DNA of 64,000 nt, taken from the NCBI GenBank assembly GCA_963825525.1, contig CAWGTN010000001.1, positions 1-64,000 of the forward strand. The letters are read 5' to 3'. This document shows, one piece after another, positions 1,097 through 19,175 of the stretch. The translations under genes were made by a program, and so were the position numbers. Every line of letters starts with the position of its first letter. Positions within the stretch are counted from its first letter, which is position 1. A model generated the notes under the pieces. That model ran no database searches and was not told where the DNA came from. It saw only the letters and a list, made by a program, of their open reading frames with translations. This DNA is from an uncultured Chloroflexia bacterium (lineage in GTDB: Bacteria; Chloroflexota; Limnocylindria; QHBO01).

Positions 1097-2470
1097 TCAT
1101 CTGTCGATCGCCTGTGCGGTCATGTCGAGCGCCTCGACCTCCGCGTGGTAGATGGCGCCGATCCGGTCGCCGATCTCCTCCAGGATCGCGGCGATGCGGT
1201 CCGGTGGCAGGGTGAAGGTATCGGCGTAGCGATCTCTGATCGCCCATGCGGTCTCCGCGGCCGCTCCCGCGCGCGACCGTCCCGGCTCGCCGGCCATCAC
1301 CGCTTCGTGCAGTGTCTCGATCGCATCAACCGCCTCGGCAGCACCGTCGAGATCGGGCGGCACGGCCGCGTCGGCCAGCTCCTCCCATTGGTCGGCGACA
1401 CCCCGCCAGGCATGCGCCGCGTCGGCCAGCGCAGCGTTCTCCAGGGCGGCGGCCGCCTCATCGAGTGCCTCGGCATACAGCTCTCGCAAGTGCCCGCCGG
1501 ATGGCCCGACCTGCCCGTCGACGTTTTCATGGATGGCAGACAGCGAGCCGAAGAGGCCGCGGCCGTCGGCGAAGACCTGTGGCCACGCCTTCGCGTTCCG
1601 CTGGTCGGTCATGAGACGGCTCCACTTGCGCCAGGCCGGGAGTGAGAAGGAGTCGGATCGGGATCGCAGGTGATCCACCTGGTCGTCCAGACCAGCCCGC
1701 ATCGCCGCCCGAAGCCGATCGGCCGGGACCGGTCCCGGCGTTGTTCGCAGCCCGACGATCCGGTGCTTGAAGGAGCTGATCCGTCCGCGTGCGGCGGCCA
1801 TCACCGCCGGCGGCACCCGAAATGGATTCCGGCCACGATCATCCACGAGGTACGAGCCATCGGCGTCACGTCCGATGATGACGACGTGCAGGCCGTCGTG
1901 ACCCGCAAGGTCGTCCGGCCGGCACCAGGTCCCGATCGACTGGAGGTCGACCGAGGCGATGACGGGCTCGCCGGCGTCCAGCCGCCCATCGAGCGCCTCA
2001 CGCGCGCCCTTGGCCCCGCCGGTCTCGTGCACATCGGGCTCGATGCCCAGCCGTTCGAGCGTCGTGCCGGTCCAGCCGGGGATCCACGGGTACTGCCACC
2101 GGTTCCGGAACCCGAGCGTGAGGACCGGCCCGCGGTGGATCTTGCCGCGGTGCTCCGCCTGGAACTCCCACAGGATGTAGCCGGCGCCCAGGCCGCCGCC
2201 GATGCCGAGGATCGCTGCTTCGGTCAACGGCTCGCCGGTCAGCCCTGAGATCACGCCCTGATTTGCCAGGACGTTGGCGAGCGTGGCCGTCTCCGGATGC
2301 AGTCCGCCGCGCAGCAGATAGCCCGAAGGGTTGGCAGCATCGGCCGCCGGCTCCGCCGACTGTACGTCTGGGGCGCTCTCGATCAGGGCTCGTCGTGCGG
2401 TGGCGTACCGCTCGCCGGTCTTGGCCATGCGCGCACGCACGACCCGCTTGAAGGCCTTGTCGGTGGTCAT
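1097..2470 (-). CDS. BtrH_N/DUF4872-like (papain-fold peptidase-like) protein with N-terminal basic RMAKTGE peptide
   Basis: 457 aa. LTEAAILGIGGGLG and HVVIIG..D motifs of BtrH-like proteins. N-terminus MTTDKAFKRVVRARMAKTGERYATAR. Confidence 0.7.
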   Translation of the reverse strand: MTTDKAFKRVVRARMAKTGERYATARRALIESAPDVQSAEPAADAANPSGYLLRGGLHPETATLANVLANQGVISGLTGEPLTEAAILGIGGGLGAGYILWEFQAEHRGKIHRGPVLTLGFRNRWQYPWIPGWTGTTLERLGIEPDVHETGGAKGAREALDGRLDAGEPVIASVDLQSIGTWCRPDDLAGHDGLHVVIIGRDADGSYLVDDRGRNPFRVPPAVMAAARGRISSFKHRIVGLRTTPGPVPADRLRAAMRAGLDDQVDHLRSRSDSFSLPAWRKWSRLMTDQRNAKAWPQVFADGRGLFGSLSAIHENVDGQVGPSGGHLRELYAEALDEAAAALENAALADAAHAWRGVADQWEELADAAVPPDLDGAAEAVDAIETLHEAVMAGEPGRSRAGAAAETAWAIRDRYADTFTLPPDRIAAILEEIGDRIGAIYHAEVEALDMTAQAIDR

Positions 2471-2638
2471 CGGTCAGTTCTCCGTCACGGCCGTCGACGC
2501 GCGCGCCCACACCGCCACGTCGCTGGCCGGTCGGATGGTTGACCGGTTCGTCCCGAGGATCCGGATCCCCTTTACCGCCGCATCGCCGAGTCGCGTGGGG
2601 ACTCGGTCTGGTGGTCCGGCGCGGGAGGCGCCGCCGCG
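2471..2638 (-). ncRNA. Candidate structured leader RNA, copy 1
   Basis: Hairpin CCGAGUC-cccacgc-GACUCGG, AAAGGGGAU-ccgg-AUCCUC hairpin, CCGGUC/GACCGG hairpin, and closing stem CCCGCGCCG/CGGUGUGGG. Matches the leader at 12843-13004. Confidence 0.65.
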
Positions 2639-2668
2639 ATTGTACGACGCGGTGAAATCGCGTCGCAA
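2639..2668 (-). promoter_or_regulatory. sigma70-type promoter TTGCGA-18-TACAAT
   Basis: Minus-strand -35 at 2663-2668 and -10 at 2639-2644. Same position relative to the leader as the promoter at 12814-12842. Confidence 0.65.
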
Positions 2669-5032: not shown

Positions 5033-5197
5033 GTCAGCACCTCCCGTCGGAGCGCTGGAGCTGGAGCGCTCGCCGCGCATGATCGAACCCGTCGTCACCG
5101 TTGCCACTGCCAGCTGCCGTTGTCATTTGGGTCATCTGACGCGATTGCCTCGCTGCAGGTGTTCATCACTTACAACTGACGCGGCAGACGCCATCGG

Positions 5198-6100: not shown

Positions 6101-6349
6101 GAGTGCGCGAGGCAAGGGCGAGCGCATCGGGCAGAGGGCGACGCCTGGCTCTTGATCGAGCTTCCGATCACGGGATGCCTCCGCGGTCAGGGCTGGTGAC
6201 GGCCCAGTGTATGCCTCCACGACGTGCTTGCCGAGACTCGAGCTTCGCCTCGCGCTCTGTGGACGATGCTTGGGCGGCTGCGGCGTTCGGCCGAAGCGGA
6301 GACGTAGACCTGCGCGTGCGTGCCCATGCGGACCGACCGGCGCGCGGAC

Positions 6350-8272
6350 TCAACCGCCGATGGCTCGGGCGACGACGACCGCTGCCGCCGCCGACCAGCC
6401 CTGTGGCCGGCATGCGGCGGGGTAGGGGATGGCACGTCCCGACTCGTCGCGCGCCACCCCGGCAAACAGCTCCGGCAATCGCCATTCGAACGACGCCGCC
6501 GCGGCGAGCAGCCCTTCCGCCACGGTGCGGGCCTCCGCGCCGAAGCCGTCGGCGAGCATGCCGTCAATGATCATCGCCGTGTCGTGCGGCCACACCGCGC
6601 CGGCGTGGTATCGCATCGGCCAGTAGCCGCCGTTCGTGGTCGACAGCGTTCGGATGCCGAAGCCCGAGAACAGGGTGGGATCCATGAGGCGCTCGACCAC
6701 GGCGCGCTGCTCGTCGCCGTCGAGCATGCCGGTACCCAGCAGGTGGCCCATGTTCGACGCGATGCCGTCCACGGCGCGGCCCTCGGCATCGAGCGCTACC
6801 GCGGGGTAGCGCGCACCGGTCGCGCCGTCACTGACCCAGAACGCGTCGCGGAAGCGCTCCGCCATCGAGTTGCCCCAGGTTCGCAGCTCGGCAGCTCCAG
6901 ACTGACCGAGGGCGTCGAGCATCTCCGCCGCGTGGTGCGCAGCGCGGACTGCGTAACCCTGCACCTCGCATAGCGCGATCGGCCCATCCGCCAGGGACCC
7001 ATCGGCCCAGCGCACGGCATCACCCGAGTCCTTCCATCCCTGGTTGGCCAGGCCGTGCCCGGTCGGGTCGTGGTAGGTGAGGAAGCCGCGAGGATCCGAG
7101 GCGGCGGCGTCACGCATCCAGCCGATGGCCGCCTCGAGATGCGGCGCGAGCGCCGCGACCTCGTCGATCGGCATCCCCGCGCGCCATGCGTCGTGAAGCA
7201 GCGAGATCCAGAGGGGCGTAGCGTCCACGGTGCCGAAGTAGCGTGGCGGCAGCACCAGCCGCGTGCTGGCACTCGCGTGGTGCGTCGCATCACGTCGCAG
7301 CTCGTGGACGATTCTCCCCGGAGCCTCGGCGGTCGCAGCGTCATGGTCGGTTCCCTGGAGGTGAGCCAGCGCAACGACCGTGCCGTGGGCGATCTGGGGG
7401 GCCGCGGGTACCAGCAGGCTCGCGGCAATGATGCTGTCACGGCCGAAGAGCGTCAGGAACCATGGAGCGCCCGCGGCGATGAATGGTGCCTTGGGCAACC
7501 CGCGCAACGTGAGCTCGAGGCCCTCGAGATCGTCGAATGCCTGGCGCACGAGCCGACCAAGGTCGTGCGCCCGGCCATCCGGAACTGCGACCCGGTCGGC
7601 GGCCGCCGCCAGGGTGCGGGTGGCCGGAGCGGCGACCACCGCTCCGCTGTCGGTGGCATCGAGCGACCACGTTCCGGCGGCCGATCCGCCCGGCGGGGCG
7701 GTAAGGCCCCACGTGATCTCGAAGCCTTTCTCGTCGCGGGTTCGGGCGCCATCGGTCGCGATGCGAACGCCGACCCGACCGTCCGGCGTGGACCAGCCAT
7801 CGTCGGTGGCCAACACCGGCCCGGCCTGTCCGCCGCCGCCCGACTTGACGACGTGCATCGGCGTCGCGTCGGGCGTGATTCGGATGGCGATCGCAACCGC
7901 CACGGGGTGGCTCGACGCGTTGAGCAGGGTGAGCGTCTCGGATACCGCGTCTCCGCCCATGGCTCGCTGACGCACGAGAAGGATCTCCGGATCGACGACG
8001 GCGCCGCCGCGGCGGAGCACAGCGCGGAGCTCCTGGCGCCGTGGAACGCCGTGATCGGTCGACAAGTGCGCGATCGACCATCCATCCGCGCGGATCGCGA
8101 GCTCGCGGACGATGCGGGTGTCGCCGAGGTACACGCCCTGTGCGCCCGCCCCAGCGTCGATCGAACCGTCGGGCGCGCTCCATGCCTGCATGGGTGCGGC
8201 AAGCAGGCACGCCAGGTCGTGGAGGAACGGTTGCTCCGCGATATGGACGTGATTGGGGGCGTCGTCAGCCAT
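6350..8272 (-). CDS. Amylo-alpha-1,6-glucosidase / glycogen debranching-like glycoside hydrolase
   Basis: AAGAPWFLTLFGRDS, YFGTVDATPLW, NQGWKDSGD, YHAGAVWPHD, LPELF, ACRPQGWS motifs. Confidence 0.9.
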   Translation of the reverse strand: MADDAPNHVHIAEQPFLHDLACLLAAPMQAWSAPDGSIDAGAGAQGVYLGDTRIVRELAIRADGWSIAHLSTDHGVPRRQELRAVLRRGGAVVDPEILLVRQRAMGGDAVSETLTLLNASSHPVAVAIAIRITPDATPMHVVKSGGGGQAGPVLATDDGWSTPDGRVGVRIATDGARTRDEKGFEITWGLTAPPGGSAAGTWSLDATDSGAVVAAPATRTLAAAADRVAVPDGRAHDLGRLVRQAFDDLEGLELTLRGLPKAPFIAAGAPWFLTLFGRDSIIAASLLVPAAPQIAHGTVVALAHLQGTDHDAATAEAPGRIVHELRRDATHHASASTRLVLPPRYFGTVDATPLWISLLHDAWRAGMPIDEVAALAPHLEAAIGWMRDAAASDPRGFLTYHDPTGHGLANQGWKDSGDAVRWADGSLADGPIALCEVQGYAVRAAHHAAEMLDALGQSGAAELRTWGNSMAERFRDAFWVSDGATGARYPAVALDAEGRAVDGIASNMGHLLGTGMLDGDEQRAVVERLMDPTLFSGFGIRTLSTTNGGYWPMRYHAGAVWPHDTAMIIDGMLADGFGAEARTVAEGLLAAAASFEWRLPELFAGVARDESGRAIPYPAACRPQGWSAAAAVVVARAIGG

Positions 8273-8300
8273 CGATATCCTCATGCTACGCCCGGCGGGG

Positions 8301-8329
8301 TTGACAACCGGGGCAACGCGATCCACGAT
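8301..8329 (+). promoter_or_regulatory. sigma70 promoter TTGACA-17-CACGAT for the LacI/ABC operon
   Basis: Perfect -35 at 8301-8306 with a 17-nt spacer. Confidence 0.6.
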
Positions 8330-8340
8330 GACGATACCGC

Positions 8341-8356
8341 ATTTGAACGTTCAAAT
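8341..8356. promoter_or_regulatory. LacI-family operator
   Basis: Perfect 16-bp palindrome ATTTGAACGTTCAAAT with central CG, between divergent hydrolase and LacI genes, just downstream of the promoter. Confidence 0.8.
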
Positions 8357-8400
8357 CGACGGGCGAGAGCCTCCGGAAATCCGCAACGGAAGTGGAGAAG

Positions 8401-9480
8401 ATGGGCGCACGGCGACCCACGCTGGAATCGCTTGCCACCGACCTTGGCGTGTCCCGCCAGACGGTGTGGAACGTGCTGAATCGACCTGCGGTCGTCGCCG
8501 AGCCCACTCGCCAGCGCATAGCGGCTGCCATCAGCGCCGCGGGCTACGTCCCTTCCCGCGCCGGCCGACAGCTGCGCACGCAGCGCTCGCACGCCATCGG
8601 CATTCGCCTGATGCCGACCTTCGATGGCATCAACGGACACATCCTGGACACTTTTCTCCACGAGCTGGCCGAGCACGCCCATCGCTCCGACTATCGCCTC
8701 GCGCTGTTCGCCGCTGCCAACGAGACGGACGAGATCGCCACCTATGCCCGGATGCGAGCGTCGAACGAGATCGACGGCGTAGTGCTCACCTCCACGACCA
8801 TCGACGACGAGCGCATCACATGGCTCCTCGAGAACGATGTGCCGTTCGTGTCGTTCGGCCGGCCATGGCGCCGCGACGCCGATGCGACGACCGCACCGCA
8901 TGACTGGGTGGACGTCGACGGAGCCGCGGGGACCGAGGCGGTCACGCGCCACCTCTTGGCGGACGGCCACGTCCGGATCGGCTACCTGTCGTGGCCGGCG
9001 CAGCCGGACGTCGGCGGCGACCGCCTCGCCGGCTGGGAGCGCGCGATGCGTCTCACCTCCGACGAGCTCGACCTCTCCACCCTCATGGCCGAGTGCTCGA
9101 ATGACGTGACCGATGCGCGCCGCGCCGCCCGCGAGCTGCTCGACCGCGGGATCACCGCGTTCGTGTGCGCGTCCGATACGCTGGCGCTCGGCGCGCGAGC
9201 GGCCCTCGGTGCGCGGAGTCCAGCCGCACCACCTGTCCCCATCGTCGGCTTCGACGACACCCCTGTTGCCCGCGCACTGGGCCTCAGCTCAGTCGCTCAG
9301 CCGATCGTCCGCGCGGCACGAACCTCGGTTGCGCTGCTCGTGAGCCGGCTCGCCGGGGAGCGTCCGCCCGAGCATGTCCTGCTTCCCCCGTCACCGGTGT
9401 TCCGCGACTCCGAGATCGCCACACCGTCGTTGTTCGAGAGCGTCGGAACCATCCAGGAGAAGGAGATCACCAACCCATGA
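8401..9480 (+). CDS. LacI-family transcriptional regulator
   Basis: PTLESLATDLGVSRQTVWNVLN HTH; sugar-binding domain with IVGFDD. Confidence 0.92.
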   Translation: MGARRPTLESLATDLGVSRQTVWNVLNRPAVVAEPTRQRIAAAISAAGYVPSRAGRQLRTQRSHAIGIRLMPTFDGINGHILDTFLHELAEHAHRSDYRLALFAAANETDEIATYARMRASNEIDGVVLTSTTIDDERITWLLENDVPFVSFGRPWRRDADATTAPHDWVDVDGAAGTEAVTRHLLADGHVRIGYLSWPAQPDVGGDRLAGWERAMRLTSDELDLSTLMAECSNDVTDARRAARELLDRGITAFVCASDTLALGARAALGARSPAAPPVPIVGFDDTPVARALGLSSVAQPIVRAARTSVALLVSRLAGERPPEHVLLPPSPVFRDSEIATPSLFESVGTIQEKEITNP

Positions 9481-10764
9481 TTCACCGATTTCCGCGCGTG
9501 CCGGCCATCCTCGCCGCTTCCGCGCTCCTGCTCGCCGCCTGCGGCAGCGGATTCGAATCAGAGGCGCCGGGGTCAACGGCACCGGCGTCGGCGGATCCCG
9601 GATCATCGACCGATGCCAGCACGCCGGCCGAGGCCGGGGCCGATCTGACGATCCTCATCGGTTCATCGGGCGACGCCGAGACGAACCTGGTGAACGATCT
9701 TGTGGCCGAGTGGTCGGCCGAGTCCGGCGTGAATGCCGAGGTCGTCGTGGCATCGGACCTCAACCAGCAGCTCTCGCAGGGCTTCAGCTCGAACAGCCCG
9801 CCCGACCTGTTCTACCTCTCGACCGATCAGATGGCCGCTTACGCCGCCACCGATTCGCTCGAGCCATATGCGGAGTCGCTCTCGAACGCCGACGACTTCT
9901 ACCCGAATCTGCGCGAGGCGTTCACCTACGACGGACAGTTCATGTGCGCGCCGAAGGACTTCTCGACATTGGCGCTGATCATCAACTCGGATCATGTGGT
10001 CGGAGGCCGGACTGACCGACGACGACATTCCGACGACGTGGGAGGAGCTCGCCTCGGTCGCCGAGCAGCTGACGACCGACGACCACGTGGGCCTGGCCTA
10101 CGGGCCGGAGGTGCAGCGCATCGGCGTGTTCATGGCCGAGGCCGGTGGAGCGTTCATCGATGACGATGGCACGACGGCGGTCGTCGACTCGCCGGAGAAT
10201 GCCGAGGCGCTCCAGTACGTCAAGGACCAGATGGCGGCCGGCACGTTCTCCTACTCGTCCGACCTCGGCGCGGGCTGGGGCGGCGAGGCGTTCGGCAACG
10301 GCCTGGCGGCCATGGTGATCGAGGGCAACTGGATCGCCGGCGCCATGACGAACGACTTCCCGGACGTCAACTATGTCGTGGCCGAGCTGCCGGAAGGACC
10401 GGGCGGCAAGGGCACGATCCAGTACACGAACTGCTGGGGCATGGCGGCGCTGTCGGACAACATCCCCGGCGCGACATCGCTGGTCGAGCATCTGACCAGC
10501 ACCGAGTCTCAGCTGGCCGCGGCCGAAGCCTTCGGCGTGATGCCGTCGGTGGCATCGGCGGCGGAGGAGTGGAAGGCGGCGTTCCCCGAGTTCGCGGCGT
10601 TCATCGATGGTGCCGAGTACGCCATCAACCTTCCGGCCCAGCCGGGGACCGGCGATGTGATCAGTGACTTCAACTCGCAGCTCGAGACGCTGCCCGCCAC
10701 GGAACCCGAGGCGATCCTCACCAGCGTCCAGCAGAGCCTTCAGGCCGCGCTGGACGATCAGTAG
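9477..10764 (+). CDS. Sugar ABC transporter substrate-binding lipoprotein (frameshift near 9990)
   Basis: ATGA overlap with the LacI stop, lipobox LAAC, PPDLFY, PKDFSTLAL; continues in ORF 9994-10764 (IPTTWEEL). Confidence 0.88.
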
Positions 10765-10779
10765 GCTCTCCTCCACAGT

Positions 10780-10808
10780 CCGGGGTGGCGCGCATCGCGC
10801 CACCCCGG
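10780..10808 (+). terminator. Strong intergenic hairpin after the SBP gene (mRNA-stabilising or partial terminator)
   Basis: CCGGGGTGGCGCG-cat-CGCGCCACCCCGG, 13-bp stem, no U tract. Confidence 0.55.
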
Positions 10809-10874
10809 CACGGTCCACGTTGGACTCCGACGGCACCCGGACGGTGCTGACCTCGTTCACCGCTTGAGGGCGAG

Positions 10875-11913
10875 ATGATAGGTACGCGGTCGCGCGGCTC
10901 GATCCACGGTAACCGGGCCTTGGCGGGATGGCTCTTCGTCACCCCCGCCATCGTCATCATCGGCCTGTTCGTACTCGTGCCGATCGTCATGGCCGCCTGG
11001 GTCAGCGTTTCGGACTGGTCGGGCATCGGTCCGCCCTTCGCCGAGGGCGTGAATTTCGTCGGTGTCGACAACTACGCCGAGCTGCTCGGTGGAACCGGTC
11101 TCGCCACGCGAGATCTCGGCACCGCACTCCGCAACAACCTGTTCTACGTGCTCCTTGTCGTCCCGCTCCAGACCGCCATCGCGCTGGGGCTGGCGATCCT
11201 CGTCAACCGGCGGGTCATGCGCGCCCGCGGCTTCTTCCGCACCGCGTTCTACTTCCCCTCGGTAACCTCGTCGGTCGCCATTGTCGTGCTGTGGCTCTTC
11301 CTGTTCAGCGCCACCGGGCCGGTGAACAAGGTGCTCAGCTGGGTCTGGATCGACGGCCCGAACTGGTTCCAGGACCCGCGCGGCATCTTCCACATCGTCT
11401 TCGGGGCCTTCGGCATCACCGGTGCCGGACAACCCGCTCAGCGGTGCGAACTTCCTGGGGATCAGCGGCTGGGACTGGGTCTCCGGCCCGTCGGTCGCCA
11501 TGAGCGCATTCATCCTCATGGCCGTCTTCACCACCTCGGGCACGTTCATGCTCCTGTTCATCGCCGCCCTCCAGCAGATCAACGCCGAGGTCGAGGAAGC
11601 GGCCATGACCGATGGCGCGAACGCCTGGCAACGCTTCCGGTACGTCACCCTGCCGATGCTCAAGCCGATCGTCTTCACGGTGGTCACGCTCGGCCTGATC
11701 GGGACATGGCAGGTCTTCGACCAGATCTACGTGGGCACGCAGGGTGGCCCGGCGAAGACGACGCTGACGCCGGCCTACCTGTCGTTCAACTCGGCGTTCA
11801 ACAACTATGACTGGCCCCGTGGCGCGGCCATCGCCTTCATCCTGTTCGCGATCATCGTGGTTCTCACCGCCCTCCAGCGGCTGTGGATCGGACGGACCGA
11901 GGTGGGACGATGA
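10875..11913 (+). CDS. Sugar ABC permease (frameshift near 11420)
   Basis: FVGVDNY, FFRTAFYFP, EEAAMTDGANAWQRF (EAA motif). Confidence 0.9.
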
Positions 11914-12744
11914 CTCGACGCGAAGGGCTGTTGGCGTGGGCGCCGTTCGTGGTGCTCATCGTGCTGGCGACCATCTACATCGCGCCGTTCCTCGTGCAGG
12001 TGGTCAACTCATTCCGGCCCGACGCAGATGTCGTTCGCGAGCCACTGTCCCTCGGGCTCGGGTCGTGGACCGCGGCAGCCTACGACCGCTTGTTCACCCG
12101 CAGTGACTTTCCGTTGTGGACCATGAACTCGTTCATCGTCACGCTGTCCGTCACGGTTGGCCGAGTCTTCTTCGTCAGCCTGGCTGGCTATTCGCTGGCG
12201 CGCATCCCGTTCCGGGGCCGCAGTGTCGTGTACGCCCTGCTCATCGCCGTCATGGCGGTACCGGGCGTGGTGCTGTTGATTCCGAAATTCATCGTCATCA
12301 ACCAGCTCGGCATGTACGACTCGTACTCCGGAATGATCATCCCCCTGCTGGCCGATGCTGCGGGCGTGTTCATCATGAAGAACTTCTTCGAGTCGATCCC
12401 CGTCGCCGTCGAGGAGCAGGCTCGCATCGACGGGGCCGGGCGTGTTCCGAATCTTCTGGTCCATCGTGCTGCCGATGTCATTGCCGGCGGTGATGACCAT
12501 CGTCATCCTCTCGTTCCAGGGGTCGTGGAACGAGCTCAGCCACTTCATCGTGTCGACCCAGAGCACCGACCTGACGACGCTCACCAAGGGCGTCGCGCAG
12601 CTCGCGTCCGGGCAGCTGAGCCAGGGCTCCCAGTTCCCGATCAAGCTCGCCGCCGCGCTGCTCATGACCGTCCCCGTCGCCGTGGTGTTCTTCATCTTCC
12701 AGAAGCGGATCATGAACGTCGGTGCCGGCGCAGTGAAGGAGTAG
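11910..12744 (+). CDS. Sugar ABC permease (frameshift near 12440)
   Basis: AGYSLAR, EEQARIDGA then FRIFWSIVLP...SWNE in the next frame. Confidence 0.9.
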
Positions 12745-12813
12745 CGGGAGCTCGAGCGTCGGCCGGACGGCGGAGCACCGGACCGAGGCTGATCCCATCA
12801 CGGCGACATGCGC

Positions 12814-12842
12814 TTGCGGGGGAGTTTGCCCGTGCCTATAGT
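12814..12842 (+). promoter_or_regulatory. sigma70-type promoter TTGCGG-17-TATAGT
   Basis: -35 at 12814-12819 and -10 at 12837-12842. Confidence 0.7.
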
Positions 12843-13004
12843 CGCGGTGGCGTCCTGCCCGACGCCCAAGCTCCGCCGGGTGCCTGCGTGACCCGCTCGA
12901 GGAGTCAAAGGGGATTGGTGTCCTCCGGGCGGACCTGACGGCCACGAAACCTGAGGGTCGTTGCGACGGTGCGCAGGACTGGTGCGGCGGCCGGAGGGCT
13001 TTCG
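12843..13004 (+). ncRNA. Candidate structured leader RNA, copy 2
   Basis: CUCC..CGGGU-gccugcgug-ACCCG..GGAG stem, AAAGGGGAU-uggu-GUCCUC hairpin, closing GUCCUGC/GCAGGAC. Matches 2471-2638. Confidence 0.65.
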
Positions 13005-13982
13005 ATGACCGAGCAGAAGCATCTCAAGGCGCTCATCCGATCCCGGATGGCGCGCACCGGTGAGTCATACACCAGCGCACGCAGCCACACCGTCAGGCAC
13101 GAGGCGCGTCCGACCCTGACGCTGGCGGCCGAGTTCCGGGCCCACGACAAGCACTGCATGACGGCAGTCTTCACCGCCGATGGCGGACACATCGTCAGCG
13201 GCGGCTTCGGCGGCCAGGCACGCATCTGGACACCCGACGGGACCCGGGTCGGCGAATTCGTCGGCCACGAGTCGGCCGTCAGCGTGGTGCGCATCTCGCC
13301 GGACGGAGCCACCGCCATCACCGCCTCATCCGACAAGACCGTCCGTACCTGGGATCTTCCGACGAGACGGCAGATTGCCGTGCTCGGAACGCATCGGAAG
13401 CAGGTCCTGGCACTCGATCTTGACGCGGCGCGGGACCGGGTGTGGAGTGGTGGCCACGATGGCCGGCTCAACGCGTGGACCCTCTCGACAGGGGAGCGTG
13501 TGGCCCAGATCGATCTTGGCGGCAGTGTGTCTTCGGTCGCCGTGCGAGCAACGGATGGGACGGTGGCCGTAGCCACGGTTGGCGCCGGGATCGCGATCCT
13601 GGGTCCTGACGGCGAGGAGATGGTTCGCTTGGCCGAGGACGCCTCCGTCGTCGGCTCGGTGACGTGGGCGACCGACGGCGGCTTCATGCTTGCGTCGGGG
13701 CAACGCGTGGCCACGGTCTGGGCATCGGACACCTGGCAGCTCGTGCGGTCGCTGGAGACGGGGCCGGGGAGCATGCTGCCGGCGGCGCTCAGTGATGACG
13801 GGGGCCGGATGGCGCTCGGATGGGACCATCACGTGGGCCTCTGGAGCGCCGATGAGTCGCAGCAGGGCGTGGTGATCAACGACCTTCCCAAGGGCGTCTA
13901 TGGCCTGGCGTTCTCGCCCGACGGTCGCTCCTTAGCTATGGCGGCGGCGGACGGTCGGGTTCGCGTCTGGTCAGTCACCTAG
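13005..13982 (+). CDS. WD40-repeat protein with N-terminal basic RMARTGE peptide
   Basis: RBS GGAGGG; GH...WD repeats (GHESAVSVVRISPDG, DKTVRTWD). N-terminus MTEQKHLKALIRSRMARTGESYTSAR. Confidence 0.9.
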   Translation: MTEQKHLKALIRSRMARTGESYTSARSHTVRHEARPTLTLAAEFRAHDKHCMTAVFTADGGHIVSGGFGGQARIWTPDGTRVGEFVGHESAVSVVRISPDGATAITASSDKTVRTWDLPTRRQIAVLGTHRKQVLALDLDAARDRVWSGGHDGRLNAWTLSTGERVAQIDLGGSVSSVAVRATDGTVAVATVGAGIAILGPDGEEMVRLAEDASVVGSVTWATDGGFMLASGQRVATVWASDTWQLVRSLETGPGSMLPAALSDDGGRMALGWDHHVGLWSADESQQGVVINDLPKGVYGLAFSPDGRSLAMAAADGRVRVWSVT

Positions 13983-14227
13983 GAGCCTCCCGACCTGCAC
14001 GATGCTGGGGCCGCTCTCGAACGATGACGGTCTGCCGCGAGACGCCCATCACCCGCGCCAGGTCGGCCCGGCCGTGCAGGATCAGTCACGCATGCGGCGC
14101 CTTGGAGAGTGCTGCCAGCGGACGCCGGCAAAAGGGAGCCCGCCGGCGGGGAGTGTCCTCGCGGATCACTCGCCTGACCGACGGGCCCCGAATGCGCCTG
14201 GCGTTCAGAACTGTCTCACCACACGCG

Positions 14228-14911
14228 TCAGGCGGACACAGGTGCTCGCCGAAGGACCGGAACCGAGACCTTCTCGGGCCGAACCGCCCACACCAGGCCA
14301 CCGCCTGCGATCAGGAGAGTTGCGCCGAGTCCTGCGAACAGAGCCGCGAGGCCGAGACCGAGCTGGAGCGCGGAGGCAGTGACGGTCCCGACGCCGAGCT
14401 CACCGATCAGGGCGTGGGCCACGCCGGTCCAGGCTTGTGCGCGGGCCGGACCCTCGATCGGATGCTCGCGATTGAAGTCGGCCCAGTAGCGGCCGTCCAC
14501 CGCGAACTCGTACGTGCCGGCGGCGAACAGCTCGCCGTTGTAGGTGACGTCCTCCGCGAGGACGATGGTCTGGGTCGAGTTCAGGGTGTGATAGGCGACC
14601 GTCGCCATCTGGAACATGTACTCGCTGCCGGTATTGACGATCGGGTCAGCCGGGTCGAGCTCGCCGGCGACGACGGGGTAGCCCCACTCATCGGTCAGCA
14701 GACCCATGATTGCCTGCGCGCCTTCGGGCTCGCCGCGATCGACGAGCTGGCCGGCTTCGTTGTAGCTGAGCTCGACGCCCTGTGCCGCGCTGAACGCGTT
14801 CAGGGATGCCTGTCCCTCCTGGACCTTGAAGAAGGCAAAGCCTCCAGCGACGACGAAGGCGAGGCCGATGAGGCCAAGCACGATGCCGAGGCCCTTCAAT
14901 CGATTGATCAC
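14228..14911 (-). CDS. Hypothetical membrane protein
   Basis: N- and C-terminal TM helices around an acidic extracytoplasmic domain; high-GC codon usage. Confidence 0.75.
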   Translation of the reverse strand: MINRLKGLGIVLGLIGLAFVVAGGFAFFKVQEGQASLNAFSAAQGVELSYNEAGQLVDRGEPEGAQAIMGLLTDEWGYPVVAGELDPADPIVNTGSEYMFQMATVAYHTLNSTQTIVLAEDVTYNGELFAAGTYEFAVDGRYWADFNREHPIEGPARAQAWTGVAHALIGELGVGTVTASALQLGLGLAALFAGLGATLLIAGGGLVWAVRPEKVSVPVLRRAPVSA

Positions 14912-15132
14912 GGTACTTCTCCCGTTTCCCTGTGCGTTCAAAGCCTCATGGCTCCGGTGTGCTCACCTTCGCCGCTGCGCCTGCCTGAGCGCAGTACCGA
15001 ACGGCCCCCTCTCGCCGGCCAGATGGCCCCCGACCGGGAAGTCAGGGGGTCTGCAGTGTGATTTCGTCAAACGAGCCATCCCGGGGTGCGGCGCTACCGC
15101 TTGCGGCGCCGTCGCGGGATCACGTGGGAGTC

Positions 15133-15852
15133 TCAAGGGGCGATCGCCAGACGCGGTCTCTTCCCGATGTTGGTTCGTTGGCGGTCCCCACGCTCGCGCC
15201 TGGGCTGGCGGGAGTCGTCACGGACGAGTGCGGTGAGTGACGGGATGTCATCCCGCTCGAAGGCGTCCGTGTAGCGACCAAGCAGTGCCCGGTGCTCGGG
15301 ACGCATCGGCTCGGGTGCGCCGCATTCCTGCCGGGCGGCGAGCGTGACCCGGGCACGCTGGAGGGCGCTATTGACCGAGGCGACGCTCGTGCCGAGCAGC
15401 TCCGCCGCCTCGCTTGCTCGCCAACGCAGCACCTCGCACATGAGGAGCACGGCGCGCTGGCGCGGCGGGAGGTGCTGGATGGCCACCATGAAGGCCTGGC
15501 GAACGGACTCCCGTGCGAGGACCGCCTCTGCAGGGTCGCCGCCCGATGACCATGGATGTGCATCGGGCGACCTCGGCTCGATCTGTGCCTCGGCATCCGT
15601 CGCAGTGCCGGGATCCATCGGCACTGTCCGGCGCTGCGGATGGGCCAGCATGTCCAGGCAGACGTTTCTCGCGATGCGATACAGCCAGGTGCGCAGCGTG
15701 GCGCGGCCCTCGAATTGCTCGTGTGCGCGCCAAGCCCGCAGGAGCGTCTCCTGGACGGCATCCTCGGCCTCGAACCGGGAGCCCAGCACACGGTACGCGT
15801 AGCCGATCAGCTCTGCCCGGTACCGTTCCAGCGGAGCCTGGTGGATTGTCAT
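15133..15852 (-). CDS. ECF sigma factor (SigG/ECF56-like, C-terminally short)
   Basis: EAEDAVQETLLRAW, LRTWLYRIARNVCLD, LPPRQRAVL, SVNSALQRAR, LLGRYTDAFE. Confidence 0.88.
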   Translation of the reverse strand: MTIHQAPLERYRAELIGYAYRVLGSRFEAEDAVQETLLRAWRAHEQFEGRATLRTWLYRIARNVCLDMLAHPQRRTVPMDPGTATDAEAQIEPRSPDAHPWSSGGDPAEAVLARESVRQAFMVAIQHLPPRQRAVLLMCEVLRWRASEAAELLGTSVASVNSALQRARVTLAARQECGAPEPMRPEHRALLGRYTDAFERDDIPSLTALVRDDSRQPRRERGDRQRTNIGKRPRLAIAP

Positions 15853-16039
15853 GACGTGAGGGTGCATCGGGCGACGGACGGCGTGAAACACCGCCTGCCG
15901 ATGGAGTCACAACGCCAGATGGTGAGTCCCCGGCCTCCACGGCCGATGACGTCGCGCGGCTAGACTTCATCGGACTCCGGAGGCCGGTTGCTGGCGTCCG
16001 AATGCACCTGAAGCAGGTCAATCCACGTCTCCTTCGTCC

Positions 16040-17275
16040 ATGGATGTGTTGCAGCGTGACGTCAGCCGACGGCGGTTCCTCGGGATGGCCGGGTCCGCGG
16101 CCCTGGCGACGATCCTGGCTGCGTGTGGAGCCTCCGCCCGGAGCGCCGCTCCCTCCGCGACGCGTTCAGTGACGCCGAGCCGCAGCCCGGCGCCTCCGCC
16201 GACGGCACCGACTGCCTCGCCCACGCCCTCACCCGCGGGGCTGAGCCTGCGCGATCAGGTCGCCCGGATGCTGCTCGTCGGATTCCGGGGCACGACGGCC
16301 GACGAGGCATCGGCCACGCTGGCCGACATCCGCGACCTGTCCCTGGGTGGCGTCCTGCTCTTTGACGTGGACGTGCCGACCCGCGCCCGCGTCCGGAACA
16401 TCGTCTCGCCGACCCAGCTGCGCGAGCTCACCGCTGCACTGCACGATGCCGCGGGCGGTCGTGGGCTCATCGTCGCCGTCGACCAGGAGGGAGGGCGCGT
16501 TGCGCGTCTCGGTCCGGATCGCGGATTCCCGGCGACGGTCAGCGCGGCCGGCCTGGGTGCCCGCGCGGACGTCGAATTCACCCGGGCCGCCGCCGTCGAG
16601 ATGGCCGGGACCCTGGCTGACGCGGGCATCAACCTCAACCTGGCGCCGGTGGTGGATCTGAATCTCAACCCGGGCAACCCGATCATCGGCGCGCTCGACC
16701 GAAGCTTCGGTGCCGATCCGGAGCTCGTCGTCGCCCAGGCCGAGGCATTCATCAGCGGTCATCGCGATCTCGGGGTGCGAACGGCGCTCAAGCACTTCCC
16801 CGGTCACGGCAGTGCCACGGCCGATACCCACCTGGGCGTGGTGGACGTCACCGGCTCGTGGCGAGAGGTCGAGCTCGATCCGTTCCGCCGGATCGTCGCC
16901 GACGGGCTGTGCGATGCCGTCCTCACCGCCCACGTGTTCAACGCTCGATTGGACCCGGCGCATCCCGCAACCCTCTCCACGCCGATCATCACCGGGATCC
17001 TGCGTGACCAGGTCGGTTGGGATGGGGTGGTGATCAGCGACGATCTGCAGATGGGCGCCATCCGGCAGCAGTTCGGCTACGACGAGGCGGTGGCCCTGGC
17101 CATTGAGGCCGGCGTGGACCTCTTGACGATTGCCAACCAGCAGGTTTTCGAAGAGGGGATCGTGAGCCGGACCTTGGATCTGGTTGAAGAGATGGTGCGC
17201 TCCGGTCGCATCGGGGAGGATCGCATTGCCGCCAGCGTGGAACGCCTGGATCGGTTCGTGAGCAGTCCTCAATGA
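16040..17275 (+). CDS. Tat-exported GH3 beta-N-acetylhexosaminidase (NagZ-like)
   Basis: SRRRFLG Tat motif plus lipobox LAAC; VDQEGG, KHFPGHG, ISDDLQM. Confidence 0.9.
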   Translation: MDVLQRDVSRRRFLGMAGSAALATILAACGASARSAAPSATRSVTPSRSPAPPPTAPTASPTPSPAGLSLRDQVARMLLVGFRGTTADEASATLADIRDLSLGGVLLFDVDVPTRARVRNIVSPTQLRELTAALHDAAGGRGLIVAVDQEGGRVARLGPDRGFPATVSAAGLGARADVEFTRAAAVEMAGTLADAGINLNLAPVVDLNLNPGNPIIGALDRSFGADPELVVAQAEAFISGHRDLGVRTALKHFPGHGSATADTHLGVVDVTGSWREVELDPFRRIVADGLCDAVLTAHVFNARLDPAHPATLSTPIITGILRDQVGWDGVVISDDLQMGAIRQQFGYDEAVALAIEAGVDLLTIANQQVFEEGIVSRTLDLVEEMVRSGRIGEDRIAASVERLDRFVSSPQ

Positions 17276-19099: not shown

Positions 19100-19175
19100 G
19101 TCCCCGTAGCTCAGAGGACAGAGCAACCGCCTTCTAAGCGGTCGGTCGCAGGTTCGAATCCTGCCGGGGACGCCA
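19100..19175 (+). tRNA. tRNA-Arg(TCT)
   Basis: Acceptor GTCCCCG/CGGGGAC, anticodon arm ACCGC-CT TCT AA-GCGGT, T-loop GGTTCGAATCC, encoded CCA. Confidence 0.96.

What the first reader, a model, noticed from the sequence alone, without database searches (positions are those of the whole stretch)
12814..13082. Portable promoter + structured leader RNA + basic N-terminal peptide cassette shared by two unrelated genes (second copy at 2393-2668, minus strand)
Seen: the WD40 gene (13005) and the BtrH-like gene (2470) are unrelated except for their first 26 aa, MTEQKHLKALIRSRMARTGESYTSAR vs MTTDKAFKRVVRARMAKTGERYATAR (14/26 identical, Arg/Lys-rich). Their upstream DNA shares one layout. (1) gcTTGCG(A/G)-17/18-TA(C/T)A(A/G)T followed by cgcgg(c/t)ggcg. 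(2) A hairpin with a CC..CG(C/U) loop followed by GAC (CCGAGUC/GACUCGG vs CGGGU/ACCCG). (3) An invariant AAAGGGGAU opening a GGGGAU-N4-(A/G)UCCUC hairpin. (4) GGG(A)CG(A/G)ACC, a variable stem, CGGUG, then the ATG, 168 vs 162 nt after the -10. The stems differ in sequence but keep pairing. Inference: a cis RNA and its cognate RNA-binding peptide travel together and are grafted onto different effector domains, as an autoregulatory switch or an RNA-tagged ribonucleoprotein. I do not recognise a named Rfam or Pfam family for it.
Basis: partly seen in the sequence, partly recalled or inferred. Interest (0 to 1): 0.92.

Follow-up and report, generated by a model that had tools for sequence, protein, structure and literature searches.

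The report
Portable leader RNA plus peptide cassette
Two unrelated genes in this window share a folded 160-base RNA leader and a 26-residue basic N-terminal peptide, and the same undescribed pair sits in front of many different enzymes in about ten bacterial phyla, so it looks like a reusable control module.

Summary
Both window genes (WD40, 13005-13982 +; BtrH-like, 2470-1097 -) carry a ~160-nt 5' leader and then a conserved basic peptide (MTxxKxxKxxxRxRMxKTGExYxxAR).

The leader folds into P1, P2/P2a, P3 and a P5/P6 arm whose 3' strand holds the Shine-Dalgarno. Covariation is strong. On 98 leaders from other phyla, none used to build the model, 88.6% of cells pair against 39-52% when partners are slid, and 47 of 54 pairs show double changes.

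Coupling is near-absolute:
- Peptide-first: 74 of 75 and 79 of 80 loci have the RNA.
- RNA-first: 34 of 35 hits examined are followed by the peptide ORF; the exception is a weak false positive.

At least 8 effector families carry the cassette, and at least 3,826 protein clusters carry the peptide. Neither Rfam 15 nor Pfam matches either part.

The most likely function, which is inferred and untested, is that the helical-hairpin peptide binds its own leader and represses translation.

The parts
12814..12842 (+). Promoter-like TTGCGG-17-TATAGT of the WD40 copy; the -10 is at 12837-12842
   Evidence: Read. The sigma-70 scan did not pass it. A TANNNT hexamer ends 5-9 nt before P1 in 139 of 160 distinct leaders, against 0 of 160 in a control window.
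12848..13004 (+). Leader RNA, WD40 copy (whole 5' UTR)
   Evidence: R1 hit at 12848-13007, 72.9 bits. No Rfam match at E<=10.
12849..12866 (+). P1 hairpin (GGCG.../...CGCC). Loop 12857-12861 (GCCCG) is the 5' strand of pseudoknot PK2.
   Evidence: Column mapping; pair counts.
12870..12905 (+). P2 (12870-12874 with 12901-12905) enclosing hairpin P2a (12877-12895). The P2a loop 12883-12889 (CCUGCGU) is the 5' strand of kissing pseudoknot PK1.
12906..12930 (+). CAAA junction, P3 hairpin GGGGAU/GUCCUC (12910-12925), then CGGGC (12926-12930), the 3' strand of PK2
12971..12977 (+). P6 loop GCGCAGG, the 3' strand of PK1 (pairs with 12883-12889)
12993..12998 (+). Shine-Dalgarno GGAGGG, in the 3' strand of the P5 arm
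   Evidence: Sequence; MFE fold; helix 7.
13005..13094 (+). Coding region of the conserved basic N-terminal peptide (residues 1-30) of the WD40 protein
   Evidence: AlphaFold2 model: helix 5-18, turn, helix 22-29.
13005..13982 (+). WD40 beta-propeller gene (P0001, 325 aa)
   Evidence: Pfam WD40 78.3 bits; model pLDDT 92.2.
2639..2668 (-). Promoter-like TTGCGA-18-TACAAT of the BtrH-like copy
   Evidence: Sigma-70 scan, 9 of 12 matches; 0.0 expected in shuffles.
2471..2633 (-). Leader RNA, BtrH-like copy
   Evidence: R1 hit at 2468-2633, 97.7 bits. No credible Rfam match.
2618..2632 (-). P1 hairpin. Loop 2627-2623 (CUCCC) is the 5' strand of PK2.
2575..2614 (-). P2 (2614-2610 with 2579-2575) enclosing P2a (2605-2586). 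The P2a loop 2599-2593 (CCCACGC) is the 5' strand of PK1.
2550..2574 (-). UAAA junction, P3 GGGGAU/AUCCUC (2570-2555), then GGGAC (2554-2550), the 3' strand of PK2
2506..2512 (-). P6 loop GUGUGGG, the 3' strand of PK1
2480..2483 (-). Shine-Dalgarno GGAG. It is paired in both the MFE and the centroid fold, as is the spacer up to the ATG.
2381..2470 (-). Coding region of the conserved N-terminal peptide (residues 1-30) of the BtrH-like protein
   Evidence: Model: helix 3-18, turn, helix 22-32, then a low-confidence linker 34-57.
1097..2470 (-). BtrH_N + DUF4872 gene (P0002, 457 aa)
   Evidence: Pfam. Foldseek best matches are AziU2-U3, CcbD and CtaG.

Best explanation
SHOWN. This is a previously uncatalogued, widespread 5' leader RNA of about 155-180 nt that begins at the transcription start. 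Its parts are:
- P1, with a near-invariant GGCG/CGCC stem.
- P2 enclosing hairpin P2a.
- A CAAA junction and the P3 hairpin (GGGGA.../...UCCUC).
- A long P5 arm capped by hairpin P6.
- Two pseudoknots: the 7-nt P2a loop kisses the 7-nt P6 loop, and the P1 loop pairs with the 5 nt after P3.

The Shine-Dalgarno lies in the 3' strand of P5. The ORF that follows always opens with a ~30-residue basic peptide, predicted as a helix-turn-helix hairpin joined by a linker (long and low-confidence in the BtrH-like protein, residues 34-57; short in the WD40 protein, residues 30-37) to whatever domain comes next.

INFERRED. The peptide is the cognate RNA-binding module. Once made, the protein binds the folded leader of its own mRNA, and of any paralogous cassette mRNA. 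The likely contact is the kissing-loop/P1 region. Binding locks the P5/P6 arm onto the 5' domain, keeps the Shine-Dalgarno paired, and represses translation (negative feedback). The variable C-terminal domain may modulate this, for example by ligand or substrate binding, which would make each fusion a one-component, RNA-level regulator of itself.
For: STRUCTURE
- On a sequence-only MAFFT alignment of 74 leaders, 32 pairs are 95.3% paired, against 27-52% when partners are slid. 22 of 32 pairs show changes on both sides, and 0 of 500 shuffles reach the observed values.
- PK2 is 85.4% paired against 28-57% slid, with 5 of 5 pairs doubly changed.
- On 98 leaders from other phyla that were not used to build the model, 54 pairs are 88.6% paired against 39-52% slid, and 47 of 54 are doubly changed. 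The two pseudoknots are not part of the model: PK1 is 97.0% paired and PK2 86.1%.
- PK1 occurs in 8 different fully Watson-Crick versions.

COUPLING
- Peptide-first: 74 of 75 sources in the class have the leader; the miss, L077, has only 88 nt upstream before its contig ends. 79 of 80 multi-phylum loci have it.
- RNA-first: 5 of 5 places in 151 genomes, 4 of 4 whole genomes have a single hit each, at the peptide gene, and 29 of 30 loci from 101 actinomycete genomes.

SELECTION ON THE PEPTIDE IS AT THE PROTEIN LEVEL
- Codon use at invariant residues matches background, and Ser21 uses both AGC/AGT and TCN codons.
- In the 52-sequence BtrH-family alignment the only invariant columns are 9 peptide residues.

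PEPTIDE SHAPE AND CHARGE
- It is basic: 9 K/R against 2 D/E in residues 1-30 of P0002.
- It is modelled as a helical hairpin before the effector domain in two unrelated proteins, followed by a low-confidence linker in P0002.

TRANSLATIONAL CONTROL
- The consensus GAGGG/GAAGG Shine-Dalgarno forms the 3' strand of P5a: 80.5% paired, 7 of 7 pairs doubly changed, on a model-fitted alignment.
- It is paired in the MFE and centroid folds of the BtrH copy.
- The unpaired probability of the SD 5-mer is 0.29 native against 0.40 after shuffling the upstream sequence, and is lower in 83 of 120 leaders.

RNA RATHER THAN DNA
- G-U is the commonest pair at one P3 position (77 of 96).
- Reverse-strand scores are 21-27 bits against 60-131 bits forward.
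Against: - There are no binding or expression data of any kind. The peptide-RNA contact is inference from co-occurrence.
- The peptide matches no known RNA-binding family: Pfam and NCBIfam and a PDB profile search.
- One peptide gene, L148 from Arthrobacter, has no leader. The peptide can therefore work without this RNA.
- Leader and peptide codons are physically adjacent, and grafts were rare: 8 label changes on the cassette tree. Part of the co-occurrence may be simple linkage.
- Single-sequence folding energies are no better than shuffles: z = +0.25 and -0.44.
- SD occlusion is only modestly above what GC-rich shuffles give.
- I found no conserved alternative 'ON' fold.
- The P5/P6 pair counts come from an alignment fitted to the model.
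Confidence: 0.5

Rival explanations
1. The leader is a riboswitch for a small molecule, an ion or another trans factor. The peptide has a separate shared role in the proteins, such as anchoring to nucleic acid or to a complex. The two co-occur because all cassette genes belong to one response.
For: A compact double-pseudoknot fold with near-invariant junction nucleotides (CAAC, CAAAGGGG, CUCGGGA) and an SD-holding helix is typical riboswitch anatomy. The fused domains have a small-molecule-handling flavour: APH, CN_hydrolase, SRPBCC/AHSA1 and a BtrH/CcbD-like amide synthase fold. In S. meliloti the neighbours are GNAT, GrpB and a DHFR-family gene.
Against: A riboswitch would be expected in front of at least some genes without the peptide. 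None was seen among 34 true RNA-first hits. The effectors share no obvious metabolite. Neighbouring genes in the window are unrelated sugar-use genes.
Confidence: 0.2
2. The peptide's main target is another cellular RNA, for example rRNA or the ribosome, which tethers the enzymes there. The leader is a mimic of that site, used for feedback in the way ribosomal-protein leaders are.
For: The logic is the same as for ribosomal-protein operators (recalled knowledge). L148 keeps the peptide without the leader, so the peptide has a leader-independent role. Several effector types (CN_hydrolase, a papain-like fold, Clp_N) could plausibly act on nascent or damaged proteins; this is speculation.
Against: There is no sequence likeness between the two window leaders and the genome's own 16S or 23S rRNA beyond chance words: the best is 11 nt at E = 0.13, and none of the conserved core words occurs in the rRNA. 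The peptide does not hit any ribosomal-protein Pfam family.
Confidence: 0.13
3. A co-translational cis mechanism. The nascent N-terminal peptide acts on the translating ribosome or on its own 5' leader as it emerges, by arrest or cis-capture. The mature protein does not act in trans.
For: The peptide is always at the extreme N-terminus, directly after the leader.
Against: Known arrest peptides regulate downstream cistrons and are not fused to diverse enzymes (recalled). The peptide is modelled as a folded helical hairpin. There is no test.
Confidence: 0.07
4. The conserved stretch is a DNA operator and the peptide is a DNA-binding tag (a transcriptional autorepressor), as in one-component regulators.
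For: The element starts right at the -10/TSS, where operators often lie.
Against: Conservation follows RNA pairing rules, including G-U pairs and long-range pseudoknots. Model scores are strongly strand-asymmetric. The peptide matches no HTH or RHH family.
Confidence: 0.04
5. No function is shared: a recent duplication or a chance likeness between two genes of this genome.
For: None, beyond the fact that the two copies lie 10.5 kb apart.
Against: The same pair is found in about ten phyla, with compensatory changes and purifying selection.
Confidence: 0.01

Closest known systems
Ribosomal-protein mRNA leaders, for example the E. coli rpsO (S15) pseudoknot operator and the rpmI-rplT (L20) long-range pseudoknot (recalled, not tested here)
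   Same: A structured, pseudoknotted 5' leader that holds the ribosome-binding site and is presumably bound by the product of the gene it precedes, giving translational feedback.
   Different: Here the putative binder is a ~30-residue N-terminal tag shared by at least 8 unrelated non-ribosomal proteins. No rRNA mimicry was seen at the sequence level. Binding has not been shown.
Arginine-rich N-terminal peptides that bind RNA hairpins: lambda/P22 N with boxB, and the helical hairpin of HIV Rev with the RRE (recalled)
   Same: A short basic helical peptide at the N-terminus acts as an autonomous RNA-recognition module beside a variable remainder. The target RNA lies in the 5' part of a transcript.
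   Different: The recognition target here would be a 160-nt double-pseudoknot fold, not a single hairpin. There is no antitermination context and no sequence likeness.
Rop (Rom) protein binding the ColE1 RNA I/RNA II kissing complex (recalled)
   Same: A helix-turn-helix hairpin protein, and an RNA loop-loop helix made of two fully complementary 7-nt loops. L2a is 7 nt in 91 of 98 rows and L6 is 7 nt in 64 of 98.
   Different: The kiss here is intramolecular, within an mRNA leader. The peptide helices are shorter (16 and about 10 residues). Whether the peptide dimerises is unknown. This is an analogy only.
Pseudoknotted riboswitches with SD sequestration, such as SAM-II, preQ1 and ZTP (recalled); all Rfam 15 families were scanned
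   Same: A compact aptamer-like fold with covarying helices, conserved junctions and the SD in a helix.
   Different: No Rfam family matches. The genes share no pathway. The obligatory peptide has no counterpart in riboswitch regulons.
Downstream-peptide motif (glutamine-II riboswitch), an RNA motif followed by ORFs with a conserved short peptide (recalled)
   Same: An RNA motif whose downstream ORFs share a conserved peptide.
   Different: There the ORFs are tiny stand-alone peptides in cyanobacteria. Here the peptide is the N-terminal module of large, diverse proteins. There is no Rfam hit.
RNA-binding regulatory domains fused to sensor domains: CAT domain of BglG/SacY with RAT RNA, and the ANTAR domain (recalled)
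   Same: A small RNA-binding module coupled to variable sensory or enzymatic domains that controls a leader RNA.
   Different: Those act by antitermination on other genes' leaders through defined Pfam domains. This peptide matches no Pfam family and sits on its own mRNA's product.

Membership tests
Any Rfam 15 family (4227 models) | Covariance-model score at or above the gathering threshold, or at least a credible E-value | tested here: not met
   Whole window at gathering threshold: only a tRNA and ASdes elsewhere. Both leaders at E<=10: chance-level hits only, best 20 bits against a gathering score of 40. Twenty leaders from other phyla at E<=0.5: only a tRNA and a microRNA model at 27 of 76 bits.
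Riboswitch (as a kind) | Conserved structured aptamer with covariation | tested here: met
Riboswitch (as a kind) | Expression platform (SD or terminator controlled by the fold) | tested here: inconclusive
   The SD is in P5a (fitted alignment). The SD unpaired probability is 0.29 against 0.40 in shuffles. No terminator was found and no conserved alternative fold.
Riboswitch (as a kind) | Downstream genes cohere around one ligand's metabolism or transport | tested here: not met
   Effectors are WD40, BtrH_N+DUF4872, DUF4287+AHSA1, CN_hydrolase, APH, Clp_N and others. The only shared element is the peptide.
Riboswitch (as a kind) | Direct binding of a small ligand | not testable with these tools
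   Needs in-line probing, ITC or similar.
Protein-binding autoregulatory leader (ribosomal-protein type) | The gene product binds its own leader | not testable with these tools
   Inferred from co-occurrence only.
Protein-binding autoregulatory leader (ribosomal-protein type) | The leader mimics the protein's primary RNA site (rRNA) | tested here: not met
   BLASTN-short and motif scan against the genome's own 16S and 23S rRNA gave chance-level words only. This was a sequence-level test only; structural mimicry was not tested.
Known nucleic-acid-binding peptide or domain families (Pfam, NCBIfam, PDB sequences) | Significant profile match of the N-terminal 30-44 residues | tested here: not met
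   Pfam at E<=10 on 2 peptides and on 72 peptides: scattered chance hits, at most 4 of 72 for any family. NCBIfam on the full proteins: nothing at the N-terminus. PDB profile search: one hit at E = 0.6.
Arginine-rich-motif / helical-hairpin RNA binders | Basic, helical, autonomous N-terminal module | tested here: met
   9 K/R against 2 D/E in residues 1-30. Helix-turn-helix at pLDDT 76-93, followed by a linker that is long and low-confidence in P0002 (34-57) and short in P0001 (30-37), in two unrelated proteins.
Arginine-rich-motif / helical-hairpin RNA binders | Specific RNA binding | not testable with these tools
   Needs EMSA, ITC or CLIP.
Rop-like recognition of a kissing complex | Two fully complementary 7-nt hairpin loops forming a loop-loop helix | tested here: met
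   PK1 is 97-98% paired, with 8 Watson-Crick versions. Loop lengths are 7 nt in 91 of 98 rows (L2a) and 64 of 98 rows (L6).
Rop-like recognition of a kissing complex | Helical-hairpin protein acting as a dimeric four-helix bundle on the kiss | not testable with these tools
   No usable computational answer here; needs biophysics.

The most novel reading that the evidence does not exclude
This is a new kind of modular gene-control device: a self-contained promoter-proximal RNA (double pseudoknot with an intramolecular 7-bp kissing loop) together with its cognate ~30-residue helical-hairpin peptide. Evolution has bolted the pair onto at least eight unrelated protein families in about ten bacterial phyla. 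Any protein that carries the tag thereby senses and limits its own synthesis at the level of translation, and that of its paralogues, possibly by Rop-like clamping of the kissing loop. It would be the first natural 'plug-and-play' RNA-peptide autoregulatory cassette in bacteria, and a ready-made orthogonal part for synthetic biology.
Probability: 0.42. Interest if true: 0.93.

Novelty: new variant of a known kind. Interest (0 to 1): 0.87.

Why it matters
- A 160-nt, double-pseudoknot leader present in Actinomycetota (including Streptomyces, Nonomuraea and Micromonospora), Chloroflexota, Acidobacteriota, Gemmatimonadota, Planctomycetota, Myxococcota, rhizobial megaplasmids and others has escaped Rfam. 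Its partner peptide, found in at least 3,826 protein clusters, has escaped Pfam.
- The strict RNA-peptide coupling makes a clear hypothesis directly testable with a synthetic 33-mer and an in-vitro transcript.
- If confirmed, it adds a new class of RNA-binding module and a new logic: a portable self-limiting tag. That would join riboswitches and ribosomal-protein leaders in the repertoire of bacterial translational control.
- It also flags thousands of 'hypothetical' proteins (BtrH/CcbD-like, DUF4287-SRPBCC, WD40, nitrilase-like, APH, Clp_N) as one co-regulated set whose biology is unknown.
- On the practical side, it corrects start-codon calls such as the rhizobial CDS that begins inside the leader.

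Tried and rejected
- BLASTN of the 269-nt finding in 41 related genomes found only 2 orthologous WD40 loci and missed the second copy in the same genome. Plain DNA similarity is too weak, so I moved to profile and covariance-model searches.
- A word-indexed protein search with residues 1-40 of P0001 returned almost only WD40 orthologues: 78 of 79 candidates.
- A small upstream ORF after the SD-like AAAGGGGA was considered and dropped. No start codon sits at a usable distance in the BtrH copy (reading).
- A resemblance of the peptide to ribosomal proteins bL34, bL35 and bS21 and to RHH, HTH and SAP motifs was recalled from memory. None is supported by Pfam, so all were dropped.
- rRNA mimicry at the sequence level: chance only.
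- Thermodynamic stability: z = +0.25 and -0.44, no signal.
- ESM Atlas feature search with the peptide: no usable hit.
- Phage collection, tblastn with the peptide: no match.
- Complex prediction with two copies of the 33-residue peptide (alignment A6): verdict 'no answer' (score 0.01 against a mark of 0.42). This counts neither for nor against dimerisation.
- The look-up of sequencing runs (kind rna) on window 12800-13400: no RNA holder listed. No read laying was possible, so the TSS and expression remain untested.

Literature. Six full-text searches found nothing on this RNA or peptide:
- DUF4872 / DUF4287 / BtrH_N.
- SRPBCC + riboswitch.
- Structured noncoding RNA + WD40 + Actinobacteria.
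- Four peptide strings.
- BtrH / riboswitch / RNA motif.
- Riboswitch candidate + phylum names + pseudoknot.

For these I saw listings and abstract starts only. In Weinberg et al. 2017 (PMC5737381) I saw only the 'find' passages: no mention of WD40, nitrilase, N-terminal, kissing or Streptomyces in the main text. 'Not in print' therefore means not found by these searches.
Full report
1. THE OBSERVATION

The WD40 gene (13005-13982, +; P0001) and the BtrH_N/DUF4872 gene (2470-1097, -; P0002) are unrelated by Pfam. They share 14 of their first 26 residues and an upstream layout of about 160 nt.

In the window's own genome (2.58 Mb, 4 contigs, 68.5% G+C) a peptide regex finds only these two ORFs. 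AAAGGGGAT occurs 5 times, and 2 of those are the leaders. No Rfam 15 family matches either leader, at gathering score or at E<=10. No Pfam or NCBIfam model covers the peptide.

2. THE PEPTIDE IS A WIDESPREAD N-TERMINAL MODULE

A 30-column profile of four peptides (A3) was searched in six frames over 401 genomes of the window's class. It matched 68 genomes, by family 35/153, 5/92, 27/137, 0/16 and 0/2. This tally includes three unpublished genomes, G115, G141 and G006.

I read 75 sources: the window plus 74 loci, leaving out L032 from unpublished G115. By their C-terminal parts the ORFs fall into three main families:
- About 215-254 aa with weak DUF4287 and AHSA1/SRPBCC matches (49 loci; Pfam, mostly below the curated cut-offs).
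- BtrH_N+DUF4872 (20 loci).
- WD40 (4 loci).
There are also a few short or frameshifted ORFs.

Of these, 552 were confirmed. The best 80 carry record titles from:
- Actinomycetota: Nonomuraea, Streptomyces, Lentzea, Micromonospora, Actinoplanes, Nocardiopsis, Arthrobacter, Solirubrobacterales and others.
- Chloroflexota.
- Acidobacteriota: Thermoanaerobaculia, Vicinamibacteria, Blastocatellia, Holophagales.
- Gemmatimonadota, Planctomycetota, Myxococcota.
- Latescibacterota, Krumholzibacteriia, Dormiibacterota.
- A Heliomicrobium-labelled MAG.

tblastn against plasmids added Rhizobium and Sinorhizobium megaplasmids and Streptomyces plasmids (16 records). A 42-column profile against 5.8 billion protein clusters, searching the longer lengths, gave 3,826 clusters at E<=0.001 among the 8,000 candidates that were scored. 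Where sources give names, they are only 'hypothetical protein', 'DUF4287', 'YndB with AHSA1/START domain' or 'WD40 repeat protein'.

Its closest peptide matches come from records titled Chloroflexia, Limnocylindrales and Limnocylindria, so Chloroflexota is my inference.

3. THE LEADER IS A STRUCTURED RNA WITH TWO PSEUDOKNOTS

Aligning the upstream regions shows the following elements in order:
- A -10-like hexamer.
- P1, GGCG.../...CGCC, with a (A/C)UCCC-type loop.
- P2, enclosing hairpin P2a with a 7-nt loop.
- A CAAA junction.
- P3, GGGGA.../...UCCUC.
- A long P5 arm capped by hairpin P6, also with a 7-nt loop.
- The Shine-Dalgarno in the 3' strand of P5.

The P2a and P6 loops are complementary and covary; this is PK1. 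The P1 loop pairs with the five bases after P3; this is PK2.

On the MAFFT alignment A4 (74 leaders, not fitted to any structure):
- 32 pairs are 95.3% paired, against 82.6% in column shuffles and 27.4-51.8% when partners are slid by 1-3 columns.
- 22 of 32 pairs show changes on both sides.
- 0 of 500 shuffles reach any observed measure.
- PK2 alone is 85.4% paired against 27.6-56.8% slid, with 5 of 5 pairs doubly changed.

I built covariance model R1 (162 positions, 42 nested pairs, no pseudoknots) from A4 and aligned to it 98 leaders from other phyla, none of them in the training set. On that set, 54 pairs including both pseudoknots are 88.6% paired, against 67.6% shuffled and 39.0-52.4% slid. 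47 of 54 pairs are doubly changed.
- PK1 is 97.0% paired and PK2 86.1%. Neither could have been favoured by the model.
- The nested helices P5a, P5b and P6 (80.5%, 76.6% and 79.0%) are on a model-fitted alignment and lean towards the structure.
- P1 is almost invariant: G-C 96 of 96, G-C 96 of 96, C-G 95 of 96, G-C 93 of 96.
- PK1 occurs in eight fully Watson-Crick versions, plus wobble variants: CCCACGC/GCGUGGG 16, CUCACGC/GCGUGAG 13, CCCCAGC/GCUGGGG 12, CCUGCGC/GCGCAGG 5, CCCCGGC/GCCGGGG 3, UCCACGC/GCGUGGA 2, CCCGCGC/GCGCGGG 2 and UCCCAGC/GCUGGGA 1.
- All seven positions pair in 57 of the 81 rows where both loops had letters. The 20 rows with none paired are rows whose 3' part is not aligned to the consensus columns; I did not examine them further.

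Against this, single-sequence folding energy is unremarkable: z = +0.25 and -0.44.

4. RNA AND PEPTIDE ARE COUPLED IN BOTH DIRECTIONS

Peptide-first:
- R1 hits directly upstream of the start codon in 74 of 75 class-level sources (60-131 bits). The miss, L077, has only 88 nt before its contig ends. Six reverse-strand hits score 21-27 bits.
- In 79 of the 80 multi-phylum loci R1 also hits: 78 at E<=1e-6 and L118 as a partial match of 29 bits.
- The single real exception is L148 (Arthrobacter sp. MYb227). Neither the locus with filters off nor the whole genome gives a hit.

RNA-first:
- The own genome has only the two known copies.
- A sample of 151 genomes of the phylum has 5 places in 4 genomes. 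All precede the peptide ORF.
- Four whole genomes from other phyla have one hit each, at the peptide gene.
- Among 101 genomes of the family of a Nonomuraea genome, 23 genomes have 34 places. Of the 30 loci delivered, 29 are followed by the peptide ORF. Three of those carry variant peptides (TG changed to TA or TD, or Y to R). The weakest hit (L191, 32 bits) lies inside a translational-GTPase gene and is a false positive.
- The rhizobial plasmid genes, which are CN_hydrolase, also carry the leader (45.9 and 48.8 bits), with a CCCCAGC/GCUGGGG kiss.

No leader was seen in front of an ORF that lacks the peptide.

5. THE PEPTIDE

- Invariant or nearly invariant residues are M1, K5, K8, V11, R12, R14, T18, G19, E20, Y22, A25 and R26.
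- Codon use at these positions follows the background of the same genes, and Ser21 is encoded by both AGC/AGT and TCN codons. Selection is therefore on the protein, not on an RNA structure running into the ORF (176 distinct sequences).
- In the 52-sequence BtrH-family alignment the only invariant columns are nine peptide residues.
- AlphaFold2 models place the peptide as a helix-turn-helix hairpin ahead of a linker. P0002: helices 3-18 and 22-32, pLDDT 76-84, linker 34-57 at low confidence, overall pLDDT 92.0. P0001: helices 5-18 and 22-29, pLDDT 83-93, overall 92.2.
- The P0002 domain resembles carrier-protein-dependent amide synthases of the papain-like fold: AziU2-U3 at E = 1.9e-8, CcbD at 1.6e-6 and CtaG at 1.4e-4.

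6. EFFECTOR DIVERSITY AND HISTORY

Among 183 cassette ORFs, BLAST clustering of the parts after residue 32 gives families of 84 (BtrH-like), 79 (DUF4287/SRPBCC), 7 (WD40), 3, 2 and 2 members, plus singletons. Pfam adds CN_hydrolase (L189), APH (L145), Clp_N x3 (L151) and a weak DUF1835 (L183); L180 and P0080 have no match.

On a FastTree of 170 distinct cassettes (leader plus 90 nt of ORF, midpoint-rooted) the effector label changes 8 times. The minimum possible for 8 labels is 7. With shuffled labels the mean is 66 and the minimum 58. For this tree I dropped ORFs shorter than 150 aa, loci with less than 185 nt upstream, and loci containing N. Grafting was therefore rare, and each effector family carries its own cassette lineage.

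7. PROMOTER AND EXPRESSION PLATFORM

The RNA therefore probably starts at P1 and is the whole 5' UTR. The -35 is weak: the scan passes the BtrH copy only.

The SD core lies in P5a and is paired in the MFE and centroid folds of the BtrH copy. In a pseudoknot-free partition function its unpaired probability is 0.29, against 0.40 after shuffling the upstream part. It is lower in 83 of 120 leaders, which is a modest effect.

8. HOW IT MOST LIKELY WORKS

Shown: the RNA fold, the coupling, protein-level selection on the peptide and the tethered helical hairpin. Everything else is inferred.

My best reading (0.5) is translational autoregulation. The basic hairpin binds the folded leader and stabilises the state in which P5/P6 is docked by the kiss and the SD is paired. 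The leader is never found without the peptide, while the peptide is once found without the leader. This suggests the RNA needs the peptide more than the reverse.

The rivals are:
- A riboswitch or other factor-sensing RNA, with the peptide doing something else (0.2).
- A peptide whose main target is another RNA such as rRNA, with the leader as a mimic (0.13). No sequence mimicry was seen.
- A nascent-chain cis mechanism (0.07).
- A DNA operator (0.04).
- Chance (0.01).

9. COMPARISON AND NOVELTY

Functionally the closest known systems are ribosomal-protein leaders with pseudoknots, N-terminal arginine-rich peptides that bind RNA hairpins, and, for geometry, Rop on a 7-bp kissing complex. All three are recalled knowledge, not tested here. 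Membership in any Rfam or Pfam family was tested and not met.

Six literature searches and one paper look-up found no description. Supplements are closed and could hold a related motif.

I rate it a new variant of a known kind, namely a protein- or ligand-responsive mRNA leader. Its unprecedented feature is an obligate, portable peptide partner.

10. LIMITS

- There are no experimental data, no RNA-seq and no complete census.
- Relatedness of the sequences inflates shuffle-based statistics, so the slid-partner controls and the untrained pseudoknots are the stronger evidence.

Noticed in passing
window 62767-62834 (+): Rfam ASdes TB sRNA match, 56.5 bits against a gathering score of 40, in a genome that looks like Chloroflexota. 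It is probably a conserved stretch of a coding region rather than an sRNA.
   Followed up: no
window 19100-19172 (+): tRNA gene, 71.6 bits.
   Followed up: no
window 4103-17275: Around and between the two cassette genes lie ordinary sugar-use genes: a GDE_N_bis/MGH1-like glycoside hydrolase (6350-8326 -), a LacI-type regulator (8392-9480 +), a solute-binding protein (9165-10163 +), GH3 (16040-17275 +) and an alpha/beta hydrolase (4103-5107 -). No link to the cassette was seen.
   Followed up: partly
L200 1393-2493 (Rhizobium leguminosarum pRL31b3, HA464_33810): The annotated CDS starts 108 nt upstream of the peptide ATG, inside the leader RNA (R1 hit 1354-1503). This is probably a mis-called start. 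The S. meliloti orthologue is annotated from the peptide ATG.
   Followed up: partly
L148 1501-2742 (Arthrobacter sp. MYb227): A BtrH-like gene with the peptide but no leader RNA. The only such case among 80 loci.
   Followed up: yes
L170 1501-1760: A strong leader (107 bits) followed by a decayed peptide: TTG start and KTDESH in place of KTGESY. It may be a cassette in decay.
   Followed up: partly
L044, L048, L052, L059, L077, L028; protein P0019: Several cassette ORFs are short or frameshifted, at 104-189 aa with out-of-family tails. They are either pseudogenes or assembly errors in MAGs.
   Followed up: no
L199 20-3075 (S. meliloti LMB1 plasmid pB): The cassette CN_hydrolase gene sits beside a GNAT acetyltransferase, a GrpB-family gene and a DHFR-family gene, a neighbourhood with a detoxification or resistance flavour.
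   Followed up: no
protein P0080 (275 aa, metagenome): Its first 30 residues are 83% identical to the WD40 protein's peptide, yet the remainder is unrelated and has no Pfam match. It may be a recent graft. Its DNA could not be fetched.
   Followed up: partly
G612, G587, G624 (relatives of a Nonomuraea genome): Up to 4 leader copies per genome. Several paralogous cassettes would be cross-regulated if the peptide acts in trans.
   Followed up: no
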